64,000 nt of DNA, from IMG/VR virus record IMGVR_UViG_3300045988_045464, positions 1 to 64,000 of that record; one strand, given 5' to 3'. The position numbers and the translations under genes are program-made. Of this stretch, positions 8,388-12,403 are shown in pieces. This DNA is from a virus. How positions within the stretch are numbered: position 1 is the stretch's first letter; each line of letters starts with the position of its first letter. A model generated the notes under the pieces. That model ran no database searches. It was given only the letters and a program-made list of their open reading frames with translations, and had not been told where the DNA came from.

Positions 8388-9845
8388 TTATTTGTTGTCT
8401 TTCTTCTCCGTAGAATAGTCCTTACGGTCGAGTTCCCACTGATACTCACACATCTGAGTGATTGCTTCAAGCTTCTCTGTACCCAGAACGAGTTTGAGAG
8501 CATTTACCAATCTTTCAGCCGGAGTTTCCACAACAGCTTTCTTGGATGCAAGTCCAAGTTGACGTTGATAAGATTCAACGCTAGCTTTGATATGGAACGA
8601 TGTTACATGGGTTTCTTCTGTAAAGATAAGTTTGGATTTGGTTGATTCAACGATTTCAGCCATAAATGCCGGAGCAATTTCAGCTTCTTGAATGTAGTTA
8701 CATACTTCACTCAAATCATCGTCGATTGTATATCCTTCTTCAGCGGTGAAGGTAGAACGGATGAATTTCTCCGCAGTTTCAGCGTCCAGACAGTCCATGG
8801 TAATCACAGAACCAATTCTCTTACCTCTCAAGAAGGTAGGTTCAATCAATTCAATGTGATTAGTAGTGAACAAGGTGATTACGTTCATGTCTTTGGTATC
8901 ACCACCGTCCAGAGTATTCAGGATGTCTTGCATAGCAGCATCTCTGTTACCTCTAGTTACTTGGTCAATATCTTCAACAAATACGACAACACCATGGCCC
9001 GAACGGTCAACAACTTTACACATGCGCAGAGTTTCTGCAAGAAGAGAAGGATTCTTCAAATACACGAATGACCAGCCGTTTGTCACAGCATCTTTAGCCA
9101 GCTTAAATGCCAGCAAGGTCTTACCTGTACCATATTTACCTTCCAGCAAACAACCGTACTTCAATGGAATACCTTTAGCCAGACATTTCTCCGGATACAA
9201 GATTCTTGAACGTAGCGGTTGCAATTCAAATTCAGTCTTCTTAGAAAGAACCATGAATTGTTTCTCGATGCCGGCAAGTGTCATGATAGTAGGTTCAGAC
9301 AGATTGCTGATTTCCAGTGCTTGATTCTTGTAGATAGACTCCGATGCTAACAGTTCTTTAGTTCTGTCAACAATATCATCAATCAATGACTGGTATTTGA
9401 ACTGGCATTGTCCTTTAATAAGGAGCAAATGACGGTCATTGTCATAGTTGATGTTGATTTCAGAATCTTCTCCCAATTCTTCAAGGCTAATTTTACCAAA
9501 CGGAACTTTGGTACGAGAACCGTCTGCCAGAACAACGTCTACGGTATCAATGTTGCTGTTTCCAGAAGGACTGTTATCCTCCTTACTAACGGCAGAACCG
9601 AAGATTTCATTGATTGCTCTGTTCAACTGATATACACCGTCTGGTTTCCAACAAAGCAGCGAGTATTTGAAACTTGCCATTTTCTTGGACTGTTTGATTT
9701 CACCTTCGATGAATCCCAGAGCATCAGCATACTTCACGTTGCTTTGGAGCACTTCAATCATTCTCTGTTTCTGAGTTTCCTCGTACTTGTTAACTCTCTG
9801 CTTAATAGCAGCTGTAGTTCCTTGCGGAATAATGTTCTTTGCCAT
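8388..9845 (-). CDS. AAA-family ATPase
   Basis: Walker A GKYGTGKT and Walker B VVFVEDID. The second region of homology is NVITLFTTNHIELIEPTFLRGKRIGSVI, typical of classical AAA. Confidence 0.75.
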   Translation of the reverse strand: MAKNIIPQGTTAAIKQRVNKYEETQKQRMIEVLQSNVKYADALGFIEGEIKQSKKMASFKYSLLCWKPDGVYQLNRAINEIFGSAVSKEDNSPSGNSNIDTVDVVLADGSRTKVPFGKISLEELGEDSEININYDNDRHLLLIKGQCQFKYQSLIDDIVDRTKELLASESIYKNQALEISNLSEPTIMTLAGIEKQFMVLSKKTEFELQPLRSRILYPEKCLAKGIPLKYGCLLEGKYGTGKTLLAFKLAKDAVTNGWSFVYLKNPSLLAETLRMCKVVDRSGHGVVVFVEDIDQVTRGNRDAAMQDILNTLDGGDTKDMNVITLFTTNHIELIEPTFLRGKRIGSVITMDCLDAETAEKFIRSTFTAEEGYTIDDDLSEVCNYIQEAEIAPAFMAEIVESTKSKLIFTEETHVTSFHIKASVESYQRQLGLASKKAVVETPAERLVNALKLVLGTEKLEAITQMCEYQWELDRKDYSTEKKDNK

Positions 9846-9848
9846 TAC

Positions 9849-10121
9849 TTAATTAGGTTTATTAATCTTATTTACTTCTTTAATGATTGCTTCACAATTC
9901 TCTCTTGTTGTAGTTAAACAACCAAGTTGAATAATAGAACCGTCTTGAGTGATAGTCAGGTTCTTCTCTTCGATTGTTTCCCTACATAGACCTCCTCTGA
10001 TAATTCTTTTAATGAGTGGAAAGGGTAATATAGTATTCTTACAGAATATCATATTCTTGCCTTCCACATAAATGACATCGTAGCCGTCAATGCTACCTAC
10101 TACCTTACTCATTCGATTCAA
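9849..10121 (-). CDS. hypothetical protein
   Basis: 90-aa ORF immediately downstream of the ATPase. Confidence 0.45.
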   Translation of the reverse strand: MNRMSKVVGSIDGYDVIYVEGKNMIFCKNTILPFPLIKRIIRGGLCRETIEEKNLTITQDGSIIQLGCLTTTRENCEAIIKEVNKINKPN

Positions 10122-10133
10122 CTATTAACTGTG

Positions 10134-10207
10134 TGGGCCCGGCCGGACTTGAACCGACAACCTCCTGATTATGAGTCAGTTTCTCTAACCGATTGAGATA
10201 CGGGCCC
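10134..10207 (-). tRNA. tRNA-Met family (anticodon CAT), second copy
   Basis: Acceptor gggcccg/cgggccc; anticodon loop ctCATaa; T arm gtcgg-TTCAAGT-ccggc. Confidence 0.75.
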
Positions 10208-10303
10208 CGAACGCCCATGTTTACTCACAATTAACAGTTCTCAAAGAGTAGTGTTGTTAGTGACTTCATGATAAATTCTATTTTAAACTGAAATAATTAG
10301 TAG

Positions 10304-10375
10304 TTGGGCTACCAGGATTCGAACCTGGGCTACAAGAGCCAAAACCTTGTGTGACTACCACTACACCATAGCCCA
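10304..10375 (-). tRNA. tRNA-Gln (anticodon TTG)
   Basis: Acceptor begins with a U1:A72 pair (tgggcta/tagccca), as in bacterial tRNA-Gln. Anticodon stem caagg/tcttg with loop ttTTGgc. T arm ccagg-TTCGAAT-cctgg. Confidence 0.7.
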
Positions 10376-10396
10376 GTAAAAGGAGTCCGAAGACTC

Positions 10397-11464
10397 CTAA
10401 ACTAACTTATCGAATATCATGGGCTGTATCGACATCCATAGATTCGCTAGCATTTCTTGCTCTGCGTCAGATGCTTCATCCCAATGTGATACGTACAATT
10501 TCTCCGTTCGTTCATTCCTATAAGGAACTTTAAATGAACGGTTAATGCGTACACTGTGTGCGAATAGGTCTTTGTCGAAATCAATAGCCCTAAGCGTCTT
10601 CTGGAAATCGTTGAACTTATTATTAGGGTCATCGACATCCCTAACAGACATTCCAGAAGGAAATGGGCCGTTACCATGCCTTGTTATATAAGGACGAGTT
10701 ACATAACAAGTTTGGATTTCTTTACGTATACCTGCTTTCCGCAACAGCTCGTAAGCGTTTTGTGAAGTTGTATTAGACGGAGTACAATAAGGCATTATGC
10801 CGAATCTTTGGTCAAGCAATATTCCCTGCGAACCTTCAAACACTAGGTTATCATAATTCAACAAGCAATCTTCATTAACCGTACCTGTATGTAAGAAATA
10901 AGCATGTGCTAACCTACACCAGTTGTCTAGGTCTATCGAAGGATATTTACTAGACATGTTGTAATAGTTATCCACTATGGCATTTAGTTTCTCACGCAGT
11001 ATGTAAGGATTCATACAATCTACAACTGTTAAGCTGTATCCTGCCTTAACTCGGTCCAAACAAGCTTTAAACCCTGTACCTACAGTACCATGTCGTAAGT
11101 TCTCTTCGTTATTAACTTGGGAATAGACATCGAAGGGAATTACAACTTGGCAGTGAGGGTGATACTGAACAATGGGATGAACTCCCATTTTAGCTAAGTC
11201 TGCACCCTCTAACATAGAGGTAATTGGGTCTACAGTACAGTATTCGGACCAATACGTCGGCACTCCAAGTAAGGTTCCGCTGCCAAAGTTACTAAAGGTG
11301 TGCATCATGTCTCCATGCTTTACAGTATGTCCTACTTGATGTCCACCACTAAACCTGACTACTAATACAGACTCTCGCTTACCTATGTACTTGTTACATA
11401 AGTTGTGAACTGTCTGTCCCTTACCTTCGTCTCCAAAGAATGTTCCTAATACAATACTAATCAT
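10397..11464 (-). CDS. adenylosuccinate synthetase family protein, short form (PurA/PurZ-like)
   Basis: P-loop GDEGKGQ, SGGHQVGHT, FEGSQGILLD...PSNTTS and TRHGNGPFP all align with PurA motifs (GDEGKGK, QGGHNAGHT, FEGAQGTLLD...TSSNTT, TRVGAGPFP). It is 355 aa against ~430 for cellular PurA. Confidence 0.75.
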   Translation of the reverse strand: MISIVLGTFFGDEGKGQTVHNLCNKYIGKRESVLVVRFSGGHQVGHTVKHGDMMHTFSNFGSGTLLGVPTYWSEYCTVDPITSMLEGADLAKMGVHPIVQYHPHCQVVIPFDVYSQVNNEENLRHGTVGTGFKACLDRVKAGYSLTVVDCMNPYILREKLNAIVDNYYNMSSKYPSIDLDNWCRLAHAYFLHTGTVNEDCLLNYDNLVFEGSQGILLDQRFGIMPYCTPSNTTSQNAYELLRKAGIRKEIQTCYVTRPYITRHGNGPFPSGMSVRDVDDPNNKFNDFQKTLRAIDFDKDLFAHSVRINRSFKVPYRNERTEKLYVSHWDEASDAEQEMLANLWMSIQPMIFDKLV

Positions 11465-11470
11465 TTCAGT

Positions 11471-12403
11471 TTAATAAAATTTGTCATTACTATCAGACGG
11501 CACATCTTGCCATTCCTGACTAACAGAAGCACTAGGAGCTAAGCCTTCAACAGGCTCCTCATAGTTCTCTTTAATTGCGGTGACAATCACCTTGTCTACT
11601 TCTCCAGATGCACATGTCAATACATTCTGTCCAAGTAAAGTCTTCCAAGATTCAGCAACCCTTGAGCCATGACTGGCATTAGTAATGTGAATGTGGAATA
11701 CATGGTACTGTTCCTTTGCTTTGTCAAGAGCTTCTTGACAAGTAATGGTTTTAGCACCTTTTTGATACCCTAGAACACGTTCTAAGTAACACCCCTCTAC
11801 CTTATCGAGATTTGGTTCATCTCCAATAGTAAATAGGAATCCCTTAGTGTGTCTTTCAAACCAGGAATCAGTTTCGGTATGATAACCTGCCACAATATGA
11901 GCTAGTAGATAGCTTTCACCTCTATTACCTCCTCCACCACCTTCAATCACGAATGATTGTAAAGTGTCAAGGATTTTAGCTGTATCAGACTCAAACTGGC
12001 CAATTTGAATTGGATATCGGTCATAAACGTGGTCCCCAACTGCCATAAACATGATTTGTGGGTCACGCACACCTAGTTGAATGAGAGAGTCCATAATCTT
12101 AGGGAATTGGTCTCTAATCATTTCATAAGGTGTGTCCATCATTGAACCAGTAACGTCTAGCGCAATGATTATCGGAGTAGAGAAAGGATGTTCTTTAGAA
12201 TCACGAGATTCACGAACACCCACGTTAACCATTTCTTGCCTTATCTGCGTGTTATACTGCCTAACATTGTTGTTAAGCGATGCAGCAGTATTACATGCAT
12301 TAATGGCATGGCTACTAAAGAGTTCATCCCTAGTAGAGGTGTACAAACCTCTACTGCTGGCCTCTACATCATAAGCAATTCTAGAATAACTACCTGCTCC
12401 CAT
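11471..12403 (-). CDS. von Willebrand factor A (vWA) domain protein
   Basis: MIDAS-like IIALDVTGSM (DxTxS) followed by an alpha/beta vWA-like pattern and a G-rich loop GGGGGNRG. Confidence 0.6.
   Translation of the reverse strand: MGAGSYSRIAYDVEASSRGLYTSTRDELFSSHAINACNTAASLNNNVRQYNTQIRQEMVNVGVRESRDSKEHPFSTPIIIALDVTGSMMDTPYEMIRDQFPKIMDSLIQLGVRDPQIMFMAVGDHVYDRYPIQIGQFESDTAKILDTLQSFVIEGGGGGNRGESYLLAHIVAGYHTETDSWFERHTKGFLFTIGDEPNLDKVEGCYLERVLGYQKGAKTITCQEALDKAKEQYHVFHIHITNASHGSRVAESWKTLLGQNVLTCASGEVDKVIVTAIKENYEEPVEGLAPSASVSQEWQDVPSDSNDKFY

What the first reader, a model, noticed from the sequence alone, without database searches (positions are those of the whole stretch)
8388..12403. Short PurA homologue (candidate PurZ-type enzyme) flanked by a vWA protein and an AAA ATPase
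The 355-aa protein keeps all four PurA nucleotide and substrate motifs but is about 75 aa shorter than cellular adenylosuccinate synthetases. Phage PurZ enzymes, which start 2-aminoadenine (Z-base) synthesis from dGMP, are similarly compact. Its neighbours are a vWA protein with a MIDAS motif directly downstream and a classical AAA ATPase two genes upstream. That context is not the known datZ/mazZ/dpoZ neighbourhood, so either those partners lie elsewhere or this enzyme belongs to a different, undescribed nucleotide or modification pathway.
Basis: partly seen in the sequence, partly recalled or inferred. Interest (0 to 1): 0.75.

Follow-up and report, generated by a model that had tools for sequence, protein, structure and literature searches.

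The report
vWA-coupled PurA-like ligase, not PurZ
The short PurA-like gene is not a Z-base (PurZ) enzyme; it belongs to a third, uncharacterised branch of the adenylosuccinate-synthetase superfamily that sits directly after a metal-binding vWA protein gene in many large phages and bacteria, with its aspartate pocket rebuilt, so it probably makes a different, still unknown purine adduct.

Summary
The ORFs are real, but the gene order was read backwards. On the minus strand the order is p126 (12407-12787), vWA (11471-12403), PurA-like (10397-11464), two tRNAs, p90, AAA (8388-9845), terminator.

The 355-aa protein has a confident PurA fold and keeps the catalytic Asp13, Lys16, His41 and Gln224. 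It fails every PurZ diagnostic: it has Asp where PurZ has Ser, it scores 22 bits on the PurZ HMM against a cutoff of 300, and phiVC8's DatZ, DNA polymerase and primase have no homologue in the window. It also fails the canonical PurA models (about 100 bits against about 400).

It has lost the aspartate loop (TTGRRRR) and Arg131 and Arg143. It has gained family-invariant Gln38, His126, His273 and a Gln in the shortened loop.

The vWA/MIDAS gene lies directly upstream of such a PurA-like gene in 149 of 154 loci. These cover 22 phage lineages and bacteria of many phyla. Every vWA partner begins Met-Gly. The upstream partner is either a p126-like helical protein, as here, or a J-domain/kinase-like protein, often with a NUDIX-wHTH gene nearby. 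The AAA ATPase is lineage-specific and not part of the core.

I found no literature on this cassette. Best reading: a GTP-dependent PurA-type ligase with a non-aspartate acceptor that works with its vWA partner. The substrate and biological role are unknown.

The parts
12407..12787 (-). p126: small, probably helical protein, first gene of the cassette. It is homologous to the ~116-130 aa protein that precedes vWA in Flavobacteriia, Methylococcales and Electronema genomes.
   Evidence: ORF. Its stop codon is 3 nt before the vWA start codon. Present in 8 phage lineages. hhalign of A4 against A5 gives probability 97.4%, E 1.5e-11, full length. No Pfam, PHROG or PADLOC hit.
11471..12403 (-). vWA-fold protein with a MIDAS-like motif (D82xT84xS86, T175, D194), an EGGGGGN loop and a universally conserved N-terminal Met-Gly. 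It is the near-constant partner of the PurA-like enzyme.
10397..11464 (-). PurA-like synthetase (355 aa) of the vWA-linked clade. The catalytic core is intact. The aspartate loop and the 5'-phosphate arginines are remodelled, and the C-terminal guanine loop is deleted.
   Evidence: PF00709 120.7 bits. PurA equivalog HMMs about 100 bits against cutoffs of about 400; PurZ HMM 22 against 300. AF2 pLDDT 93.2. Foldseek best hit H. pylori PurA, E 6e-21. Residue tables. Its start codon is 6 nt after the vWA stop codon.
10303..10375 (-). tRNA-Gln(UUG), directly downstream of the PurA-like gene. Context only; part of a 27-tRNA island.
   Evidence: ARAGORN.
10133..10207 (-). tRNA-Met(CAU). Context only.
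   Evidence: ARAGORN.
9849..10121 (-). 90-aa ORF, lineage-specific, with no family hit.
   Evidence: Found in 26 of 83 related loci, all but one of them close relatives.
8388..9845 (-). Classical AAA ATPase (phrog_10440). It is probably co-transcribed here but is not part of the conserved cassette.
   Evidence: Pfam AAA 52 bits. Weak similarity to IetA/IteA. Homologues lie in N4-like and other phages that were not among the vWA or PurA-like hits. Present in 26 of 83 related loci.
8357..8382 (-). Terminator-like hairpin (11 bp stem, 7 GC pairs, T-run) just after the AAA stop codon; probable end of the transcription unit.

Best explanation
The 355-aa protein is the enzymatic subunit of a conserved, so far uncharacterised cassette. 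The cassette order is: an upstream adaptor (p126-type helical protein, or a J-domain/kinase-like protein), then a MIDAS-vWA protein, then a PurA-like ligase. Large phages and many bacteria share it.

Shown:
- It is a third clade of the adenylosuccinate-synthetase superfamily, distinct from canonical PurA and from PurZ/PurZ0.
- It keeps the residues that perform NTP-dependent O6-phosphorylation of a 6-oxopurine nucleotide (Asp13, Lys16, His41, Gln224, Thr239).
- Most clade members keep the guanine-specificity residues (Asp333, Ser414).
- It has lost the residues that hold L-aspartate (Thr300/301, Arg303/305, Arg131) and the trans-subunit Arg143. It has gained invariant Gln38, His126, His273 and a loop Gln.

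Inferred:
- It still activates a hypoxanthine-type nucleotide with GTP, or with relaxed NTP choice in this C-terminally truncated phage version.
- It transfers the activated nucleotide to an amine other than free aspartate, giving an N6-substituted adenine nucleotide.
- It does this in physical or functional association with the vWA partner, which could act as substrate presenter, regulator or acceptor.

The biological role is unknown. The patchy distribution across bacteria and phages, the alternative upstream partners and the frequent NUDIX-wHTH gene fit a nucleotide-centred stress or conflict module better than housekeeping purine synthesis. It does not make Z-DNA precursors.
For: Clade identity and motifs.

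Coupling to vWA:
- The same phage taxa carry both genes (238 and 220 records; Mycobacterium 202/201, Rhizobium 10/10, Vibrio 6/6).
- 149 of 154 loci have the PurA-like gene directly downstream on the same strand, across 22 phage lineages and 80 bacterial loci.
- In the window the genes are separated by 3 and 6 nt.

vWA fold and MIDAS. Invariant N-terminal Met-Gly.

Cassette variants:
- p126 is homologous to the bacterial F10 protein.
- J-domain (HPD) plus kinase-like partner.
- NUDIX plus NrtR-type wHTH gene, co-directional or divergent.

Asp-using enzymes keep a full-length TT...RR loop: PurA FGATTGRRRR, PurZ TTVTKKVRR, S-2L TTVTKLPRR, PurZ0 TTVTNKIRR. All 89 vWA-linked sequences have the shortened N..[FWY]QG..R loop.

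Size of the family: at least 564 genome loci and 1326 clusters at 50% identity with E<=1e-10.
Against: - No biochemical data exist. Substrate inference from lost or gained residues is indirect.
- A single retained Arg (position 306) and the invariant loop Gln could conceivably still bind aspartate.
- RefSeq simply calls the bacterial members 'adenylosuccinate synthetase'.
- No complex model could be computed, so physical contact between vWA and PurA-like rests on gene order alone.
- The one apparent fusion (L059) is a deletion that removes the P-loop Asp and is probably defective.
- Flanking genes in bacteria show no clear defence-island enrichment (9 of 130 PADLOC hits), so a conflict role is not established.
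Confidence: 0.5

Rival explanations
1. Ordinary adenylosuccinate synthetase. The gene is an auxiliary metabolic gene that boosts AMP synthesis from IMP and aspartate during infection. The vWA neighbour is a regulator or is unrelated.
For: PF00709 hit. The PurA fold with bacterial PurA as the best structural match. Catalytic Asp13, His41, Gln224 and Lys16 are kept, and Asp333 is kept. RefSeq annotates the bacterial members this way.
Against: - Scores are about 100 bits against equivalog cutoffs of 368-700.
- The Asp-loop residues, R131 and R143 are lost in all 89 members, whereas both PurA and PurZ keep the loop.
- The strict, ancient coupling to a vWA protein (149 of 154 loci) and to J-domain/kinase or p126 partners has no place in purine biosynthesis.
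- A canonical PurA carried on a record filed as a phage looks quite different: MT835471, 46% identical to E. coli PurA, with an intact TTGRPRR loop.
Confidence: 0.17
2. PurZ-type enzyme: dGMP plus Asp gives the dZMP precursor, so the phage has a 2-aminoadenine genome.
For: Compact size (355 aa), similar to PurZ (343 aa). Phage origin. RefSeq and PHROGs label relatives '2-aminooxy adenylosuccinate synthetase'.
Against: - Asp, not Ser, at position 13 (PurZ: Ser in 147 of 147, PMC12884076).
- PurZ HMM 22 bits against 300.
- No PurZ chain found by phmmer at E<=10.
- 13-15% identity to PurZ structures.
- The TTxTxxxRR loop is absent.
- phiVC8's DatZ, DNA polymerase I and primase have no homologue in the window.
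- The same clade occurs in hundreds of bacterial chromosomes, where a Z genome is not expected.
- The '2-aminooxy' label appears to be name propagation from phiVC8.
Confidence: 0.02
3. The PurA-like protein has become a regulatory GTPase or NTP-binding switch with no ligase chemistry. It controls, or is controlled by, the vWA protein, by analogy with MoxR-vWA or SIMIBI metallochaperone pairs.
For: PurA belongs to the P-loop NTPase fold (established knowledge). vWA proteins usually pair with NTPases such as MoxR (PMC7824862, PMC9503650). The acceptor pocket is heavily remodelled.
Against: Asp13, His41 and Gln224, which are needed for IMP O6 activation but not for simple NTP hydrolysis, are invariant in 88-89 of 89 sequences. 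New invariant His126, His273 and a loop Gln line the pocket, which suggests a new substrate rather than decay.
Confidence: 0.08
4. The cassette acts on tRNA or RNA, for example by modifying or repairing inosine- or guanosine-containing tRNAs. This would explain its position inside a 27-tRNA island.
For: In the window and its relatives (down to about 45% identity) the cassette is embedded in tRNA arrays of up to 36 tRNAs per 20 kb. Loss of the 5'-phosphate ligands R143 and T129 could fit a polymer-embedded nucleotide. Pnk lies nearby in Bxz1-like phages and a TROVE protein lies nearby in phiKT1024.
Against: More distant phage lineages have few or no tRNA genes within +/-10 kb of the cassette, and no tRNA-related family recurred among the conserved neighbours of the bacterial loci (tRNA genes themselves were not scanned there). 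The association is therefore lineage-specific synteny.
Confidence: 0.05

Closest known systems
Canonical adenylosuccinate synthetase PurA (EC 6.3.4.4; e.g. E. coli 1CG0, H. pylori 6ZXQ)
   Same: Same fold (Foldseek E 6e-21, TMq about 0.72, 24-25% identity). Same P-loop GDEGKG, His41, Gln224, Thr239, TRxGxGP and Asp333.
   Different: - Shortened Asp loop without T300/T301/R303/R305; R131 and R143 lost; N38Q, I126H, T129V/C and V273H.
- Far below the equivalog cutoffs.
- The window version lacks the S414 guanine loop.
- Almost always encoded directly after a vWA gene.
PurZ / PurZ0 (N6-succino-2-amino-2'-deoxyadenylate synthase of Z-genome phages; 6FM1, 7ODX, 7VF6)
   Same: A phage-borne PurA-superfamily member of compact size.
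   Different: PurZ has Ser at position 13, keeps the TTxTxxxRR aspartate loop, and sits with datZ/mazZ/dpoZ or dutZ/dmtZ (PMC12884076). Here the residue is Asp13, the loop is remodelled, the partner is vWA, identity is 13-17% and the PurZ HMM gives 22 bits.
TerY-P triad (vWA TerY + Ser/Thr kinase + PP2C phosphatase). That it is a validated anti-phage system (Gao et al. 2020) is from my own knowledge; it was not retrieved here.
   Same: A standalone MIDAS-vWA protein encoded next to a protein-kinase-like gene, in the bacterial and some phage variants of the cassette.
   Different: No PP2C. The kinase-like protein carries an N-terminal J-domain. A PurA-like enzyme is the constant partner. PADLOC v2.0.0 returned no match at E<=0.01 for this vWA protein. 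The window variant has p126 in place of the kinase.
MoxR(AAA+)-vWA chaperone pairs (NorQ/NorD, CbbQ/CbbO, BchI/BchD, CobS/CobT)
   Different: The coupled NTPase is a PurA-type ligase, not a MoxR AAA+. The nearby AAA in the window is a classical-clade AAA (PF00004) and is not co-conserved.
Nudix-HTH (NrtR-like)-regulated conflict operons with vWA 'peptide-binding chaperones' (ARG-centred systems, PMC9503650 section 3.8)
   Same: A NUDIX + NrtR-type wHTH gene next to an operon that contains a vWA protein. Alternative, mutually exclusive accessory partners.
   Different: No ADP-ribosylglycohydrolase or phosphatase is present. The PurA-like enzyme is not mentioned in that work ('PurA' occurs 0 times). 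The window's phage version has no NUDIX gene.

Membership tests
PurZ / PurZ0 | Ser (not Asp) at the position of E. coli PurA Asp13 (100% of 147 phage PurZ, PMC12884076) | tested here: not met
   The window protein has G-D-E-G-K-G. 88 of 89 clade members have Asp and one is gapped.
PurZ / PurZ0 | Match to the NCBIfam PurZ model NF038379 above its cutoff (300 bits) | tested here: not met
   22.2 bits, local match to residues 192-264 only. No PurZ chain found by phmmer against the PDB at E<=10.
PurZ / PurZ0 | Z-cluster neighbours (DatZ, MazZ/DUF550 or DutZ/DmtZ, DpoZ) | tested here: not met
   tblastn of phiVC8 DatZ, DNA polymerase I, primase and their neighbours against the window gave nothing below E 0.09. 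MazZ, DutZ and DmtZ were not queried. Only 64 kb of a genome that appears to be about 180 kb or larger (from related contig sizes) was available.
PurZ / PurZ0 | dGMP/ATP specificity and 2-aminoadenine in virion DNA | not testable with these tools
   Needs an enzyme assay or nucleoside LC-MS.
Canonical PurA (adenylosuccinate synthetase) | PF00709 domain and PurA fold | tested here: met
   120.7 bits. AF2 pLDDT 93.2 and Foldseek E 6e-21 to 6ZXQ.
Canonical PurA (adenylosuccinate synthetase) | Score above the equivalog HMM cutoffs (NF002223 402, TIGR00184 395.55, NF003295 368) | tested here: not met
   100.8, 91.6 and 61.6 bits.
Canonical PurA (adenylosuccinate synthetase) | Catalytic residues Asp13, Lys16, His41 and Gln224 | tested here: met
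   Lys16, His41 and Gln224 are invariant in all 89 clade sequences, and Asp13 in 88 of 89.
Canonical PurA (adenylosuccinate synthetase) | L-aspartate site: Thr300/Thr301/Arg303/Arg305 loop and Arg131 | tested here: not met
   The loop is shortened to N..[FWY]QG..R. The window has FQKTLR where E. coli has FGATTGRRRR. R131 is T.
Canonical PurA (adenylosuccinate synthetase) | IMP 5'-phosphate ligands Asn38, Thr129, Thr239 and Arg143' | tested here: not met
   Thr239 is kept. N38 is Q, T129 is V and R143 is G.
Canonical PurA (adenylosuccinate synthetase) | Guanine recognition by Asp333 and Ser414 | tested here: inconclusive
   Asp333 is kept (SHWD). The Ser414-x-Gly-Pro segment is deleted in the window protein but present in 64 of 89 clade members.
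vWA domain with MIDAS | vWA (Rossmann-like alpha/beta) fold | tested here: met
vWA domain with MIDAS | MIDAS motif DxSxS ... T ... D | tested here: met
   D82-V-T84-G-S86, T175 and D194 are invariant or near-invariant in A2/A3, with Thr replacing the first Ser. Metal binding itself was not tested.
TerY-P triad | TerY-type vWA together with a Ser/Thr kinase and a PP2C phosphatase | tested here: not met
   No kinase homologue in the window. No PP2C was found among the conserved neighbours. No PADLOC hit for the vWA protein.
MoxR-vWA chaperone pair | A MoxR-clade AAA+ ATPase co-conserved with the vWA protein | tested here: not met
   The nearby ATPase matches PF00004 and the proteasomal/CDC48 models. 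It is present in only 26 of 83 loci.
vWA-linked PurA-like cassette (defined here) | PurA-like gene immediately downstream of a vWA gene whose product starts Met-Gly; signature Q38, H126, H273 and N..[FWY]QG..R; upstream p126/F10 or J-domain-kinase gene | tested here: met
   The window has all of these: p126, the MGAGSYS N-terminus, and GHQVGHT / RHGTVG / TRHG / FQKTLR. Intergenic gaps are 3 and 6 nt.

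The most novel reading that the evidence does not exclude
The PurA-like enzyme uses the free alpha-amine of the invariant N-terminal glycine of its vWA partner (after Met removal) in place of L-aspartate. It would covalently link a 6-oxopurine nucleotide to the protein N-terminus through a purin-6-yl-glycine bond, chemically like phage Mu's N6-carbamoylmethyl-adenine and like hadacidin binding in the PurA Asp site. This would be a new kind of protein nucleotidylation that arms or switches a MIDAS protein. 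It would be modulated by a J-domain/kinase or p126 adaptor and, in bacteria, read out or erased by the linked NUDIX protein.
Probability: 0.12. Interest if true: 0.9.

Novelty: new variant of a known kind. Interest (0 to 1): 0.68.

Why it matters
It corrects a spreading misannotation. RefSeq and PHROGs label this clade '2-aminooxy adenylosuccinate synthetase', which is the PurZ name, in more than 200 Bxz1-like mycobacteriophages and other phages. That label would wrongly predict Z-genomes.

It also defines a large, coherent, unstudied gene cassette: about 1,300 vWA clusters at 50% identity, at least 564 species genomes, and 22 phage lineages including easily cultured SEA-PHAGES cluster C1 phages and Vibrio and Rhizobium phages. 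In this cassette a well-understood enzyme scaffold has a rebuilt acceptor pocket and a near-obligate protein partner. That gives a directly testable route to a new purine-adduct chemistry, either a small molecule or a protein-linked nucleotide, and to a possible new nucleotide-centred module shared by phages and bacteria.

Tried and rejected
1. PurZ hypothesis: rejected on residues, HMM score, structure ranking and gene context.
2. AAA ATPase as a functional partner: rejected as core. It is in 26 of 83 loci, and its homologues lie in phages that were not among the vWA or PurA-like hits.
3. Apparent vWA-PurA-like fusion in L059 as Rosetta-stone evidence: rejected. It is an in-frame deletion joining vWA residue 247 to PurA-like residue 14. 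It removes the P-loop GDE and part of the GGGGG loop, so it is probably a defective copy or a misassembly.
4. tRNA-island linkage as a functional clue: only lineage-specific.
5. Known defence system: PADLOC has no model matching the vWA, PurA-like or p126 proteins. Only 9 of 130 flanking proteins from 36 diverse bacterial loci hit PADLOC at 1e-10. A defence-island signal is therefore not shown.
6. Sequence searches for the vWA protein against Pfam, NCBIfam and the PDB gave nothing. Only the fold search identified it.
7. Literature: ten full-text searches found no paper describing a vWA/PurA-like pair. The relevant ones were. Anantharaman et al. 2012 (Ter systems) could not be retrieved.
8. A megablast of the region against the phage collection found no near relative.
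9. A proper phylogeny with many PurA, archaeal PurA and PurZ outgroups was not built, because too few outgroup sequences were retrievable. Motif, HMM and structure rankings were used instead.
10. A complex prediction (vWA with PurA-like) was not possible with the tools.

Full report
**1. What is in the sequence**

All genes of the finding lie on the minus strand. In transcription order they are:
- a 126-aa ORF, p126 (12407-12787)
- a 310-aa ORF (11471-12403)
- the 355-aa PurA homologue (10397-11464)
- tRNA-Gln (10303-10375) and tRNA-Met (10133-10207)
- a 90-aa ORF (9849-10121)
- a 485-aa AAA ATPase (8388-9845)
- a strong terminator-like hairpin (8382-8357)

The first three genes are packed tightly: TAA-ttt-ATG between p126 and the 310-aa gene, and TAA-actgaa-ATG before the PurA-like gene. 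The vWA gene is upstream of the enzyme and the AAA gene is downstream.

The window is phage DNA.
- It encodes a terminase (55880-57640) and a portal protein (57871-60072).
- The terminase is 100% identical to a human-faecal phage scaffold (MT835470) and about 29% identical to crAss-like phage terminases.
- The cassette lies inside an island of 27 predicted tRNA genes that includes a CUA-anticodon suppressor.

**2. The 355-aa protein is a PurA-superfamily enzyme, but neither PurA nor PurZ**

It matches Pfam PF00709 with 120.7 bits, but only over profile positions 1-277 of 416. NCBIfam scores are far below the curated cutoffs:
- about 100 bits on the bacterial PurA equivalogs, against cutoffs of about 400
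- 61.6 bits on the archaeal-type model, against 368
- 22.2 bits on the PurZ model, against 300

phmmer against the PDB finds only PurA chains (best H. pylori, 1.4e-21). It finds no PurZ chain even at E<=10.

An AF2 model is confident (pLDDT 93.2). Foldseek ranks its matches as follows:
- bacterial and eukaryotic PurA: E about 1e-20, 24-25% identity, TMq 0.70-0.74
- PurZ0 7VF6: 17% identity
- P. horikoshii PurA: 17% identity
- S-2L PurZ: 15% identity
- phiVC8 PurZ: 13-15% identity

The published diagnostic for PurZ/PurZ0 is Ser in place of E. coli Asp13. It holds in all 147 phage sequences analysed, whereas Asp13 is 99% conserved in PurA (PMC12884076). [quoted passage not shown] The window protein has GDEGKG. 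phiVC8's DatZ, DNA polymerase I and primase have no homologue in the window. The PurZ reading is therefore rejected.

**3. A distinct active-site signature**

I aligned 89 relatives from phages and bacteria with E. coli PurA and phiVC8 PurZ. I then added a canonical PurA from a gut record filed as a phage and a PurZ0.

Kept from PurA:
- G12, D13, K16 and G17
- H41, E221, Q224 and T239
- TRxGxG
- T330 and D333 (80 of 89)
- S414-x-G-P (64 of 89)

The chemistry of NTP-dependent O6 activation and, in most members, guanine recognition is therefore retained.

Changed in essentially all members:
- N38 to Q (86 of 89)
- I126 to H (86 of 89)
- T129 to C or V
- R131 to a hydrophobic residue or Thr
- R143 lost
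- V273 to H (89 of 89)
- the aspartate loop, described below

The aspartate loop is FGATTGRRRR in E. coli and TTVTKKVRR, TTVTKLPRR or TTVTNKIRR in PurZ, S-2L PurZ and PurZ0. In this clade it is replaced by a shorter N-x-x-[FWY]-Q-G-x-x-R, with an invariant Gln and only one Arg. Both known aspartate-using branches keep the TT...RR loop. This branch does not.

The window protein is also C-terminally truncated and lacks the S414 loop. Bacterial members are about 390-430 aa (median 407). Its compactness is therefore a lineage feature and not a PurZ trait.

**4. The neighbour is a true vWA/MIDAS protein and a near-constant partner**

Co-occurrence with the PurA-like gene:
- In the phage collection the two proteins occur in the same taxa: Mycobacterium 202 and 201 records, Rhizobium 10 and 10, Vibrio 6 and 6.
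- They are adjacent in phiKT1024, MoMoMixon (gp257 and gp259) and MT835469.
- A scan of IMG/VR gave 75 loci.
- Of 154 loci with enough downstream sequence, 149 have the PurA-like gene directly downstream on the same strand.
- These loci span 22 phage lineages (<70% identity) and many bacterial groups: Actinomycetes, Bacteroidota, Clostridia, Alpha- and Gammaproteobacteria, Desulfobulbaceae and Saccharibacteria.

The vWA family comprises 1855 clusters at 50% identity (1326 at E<=1e-10). The 150 best hits are standalone proteins or fragments of at most 409 aa, most of them about 280-330 aa.

Every vWA member whose N-terminus was recovered, bacterial or phage, starts Met-Gly followed by x-x-x-[WYF]-[STD]. 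This degree of N-terminal conservation is unusual. By the established rules of methionine aminopeptidase it implies a functional free N-terminal glycine.

**5. The rest of the cassette**

The window's p126 is homologous over its full length to a 111-160 aa protein, here called F10. F10 directly precedes the vWA gene in Flavobacteriia, Methylococcales, Electronema and others (hhalign probability 97.4%, E 1.5e-11).

In other bacteria and in six phage lineages, including Bxz1-like phages (gp256, annotated 'Ser/Thr kinase'), that position is occupied by a protein of about 330 aa. This protein has a weak Pkinase match and an N-terminal J-domain. The J-domain has an invariant HPD motif and sub-threshold but consistent Pfam DnaJ hits in 6 of 7 divergent members. 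The two upstream partners are mutually exclusive.

A NUDIX + NrtR-type winged-helix gene accompanies the cassette in 36 of 80 bacterial loci. It is co-directional or divergent, and its Nudix box is strictly intact in 21 of 36. RefSeq annotates the set as NUDIX / hypothetical / hypothetical / 'adenylosuccinate synthetase'.

The AAA ATPase is present in only 26 of 83 related loci, all but one of them close relatives. Its homologues occur in N4-like and other phages that were not among the vWA or PurA-like hits. It is therefore not part of the core.

**6. How it most likely works**

Shown:
- a third PurA-superfamily clade with an intact activation machinery
- a rebuilt acceptor and 5'-phosphate environment
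- near-obligate genetic coupling to a MIDAS-vWA protein with an invariant N-terminal Gly
- modular upstream partners

Inferred:
- The enzyme phosphorylates O6 of a hypoxanthine-type nucleotide with GTP.
- It transfers the nucleotide to an amine other than free aspartate.
- It acts with, or on, the vWA protein.

The linked NUDIX protein could sense or hydrolyse the product. This follows the logic proposed for Nudix-HTH regulators and vWA 'peptide-binding chaperones' in other predicted conflict operons (PMC9503650 section 3.8).

The biological role is open.
- The patchy distribution across bacteria and phages and the partner swapping suggest a conflict or stress module.
- However, only 9 of 130 flanking proteins hit PADLOC, and PADLOC has no model for the core genes.
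- I put about 0.5 on this overall reading, 0.17 on plain AdSS, 0.02 on PurZ, 0.08 on a non-catalytic switch and 0.05 on a tRNA-directed role.
- The most novel reading not excluded is ligation of the nucleotide to Gly1 of the vWA partner, at about 0.12.

**7. Novelty**

Ten full-text searches found no description of this pairing (the relevant ones are). The most relevant paper counts 481 viral PF00709 proteins, classifies 147 as PurZ, and uses the remaining sequences only as the tree root, labelled 'other PurA homologs'. Database names for this clade ('2-aminooxy adenylosuccinate synthetase' in RefSeq and phrog_1211) are the same name RefSeq gives the phiVC8 PurZ and are probably wrong.

I rate this a new variant of a known kind, namely a PurA-type ligase. 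It would become something categorically new if the protein-acceptor reading holds.

Noticed in passing
window 5502-30007: Island of 27 predicted tRNA genes, 26 of them on the minus strand, interspersed with small ORFs. It includes a CUA-anticodon suppressor tRNA (called 'tRNA-Pyl') at 22091-22163. Two predictions overlap on opposite strands at 15067-15170 (Arg/Ser); one is probably spurious. Terminase and portal read as intact ORFs under code 11, so any TAG recoding is not obvious there.
   Followed up: partly
L012:10965-11714 (and L013, L015, L016, L018, L021-L025): In many near-identical relatives of the window, a 249-aa ORF with repeated 'KYDYSKV...C..HG.F...P..H..G.GCP.C' zinc-finger-like modules is inserted between the vWA and PurA-like genes. 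It looks like a homing endonuclease and splits the otherwise abutting pair by about 780 bp.
   Followed up: partly
L008:3891-5993 (398-kb metagenomic contig) and L009: The vWA gene is interrupted exactly at its most conserved EGGGGGN loop by an ORF with two LAGLIDADG-type motifs (WFADGC and WDGDGC). The C-terminal half of vWA follows as a separate 161-aa ORF. This looks like an intron or homing-endonuclease invasion of a conserved site.
   Followed up: partly
L059:9998-11728: A single 576-aa ORF joins vWA residue 247 to PurA-like residue 14. It deletes the vWA tail and the GDE of the P-loop. It is probably a defective copy or an assembly artefact, not a functional fusion.
   Followed up: yes
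L002:3535-4665 (MoMoMixon gp256) and bacterial loci such as L122:6877-7896: The gene annotated 'Ser/Thr kinase' upstream of the vWA gene carries a previously unannotated, divergent N-terminal J-domain with an invariant HPD motif, fused to the kinase-like domain.
   Followed up: partly
Phage database annotations (e.g. NC_023733.1 gp259; phrog_1211): RefSeq and PHROGs name this clade '2-aminooxy adenylosuccinate synthetase', the same name RefSeq gives the phiVC8 PurZ. This applies to more than 200 Bxz1-like mycobacteriophages and to Vibrio phages. The sequences have Asp13 and lack PurZ features, so this is probably a propagated misannotation.
   Followed up: yes
window 15258-17219: A 653-aa protein with an N-terminal TM segment and an SPFH/Band-7 domain (88 bits), followed by a long Ala/Glu/Lys-rich repetitive region. 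It lies 3 kb upstream of the cassette. A Band_7 gene also lies about 4 kb from the cassette in the unrelated locus L010.
   Followed up: no
window 24897-26591; L001:9394-10902: A 564-aa protein matching phrog_850 ('RNA-binding protein') sits at the far end of the tRNA island. Vibrio phage phiKT1024 has a TROVE (Ro60-like) gene about 2.3 kb downstream of its cassette. A possible RNA-quality-control theme was not pursued.
   Followed up: no
window 8388-9845: The AAA ATPase shows weak similarity to the anti-phage ATPase IetA/IteA (PADLOC 4.5e-8; NCBIfam NF042959 6.8e-4). It has full-length homologues in N4-like Pseudomonas, Erwinia and Klebsiella phages, where it is variously annotated as FtsH, metalloprotease or helicase.
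   Followed up: partly
L166 (Allorhizobium ampelinum S4 pAtS4e 493596-500414): On this conjugative megaplasmid the NUDIX / J-kinase / vWA / PurA-like cassette is followed directly by an AAA-family ATPase gene, a DUF5682 gene and a DUF4132 gene. A type VI secretion vgrG gene lies about 3 kb upstream.
   Followed up: no
window ~36000-40000 and ~50000-64000: GC and AT skew change sign where the coding strand switches: minus-strand early and tRNA region, then plus-strand blocks at 36-40 kb and from about 50 kb that include an exonuclease, the terminase and the portal. GC content also drops to about 0.32-0.34 at 36-40 kb.
   Followed up: no
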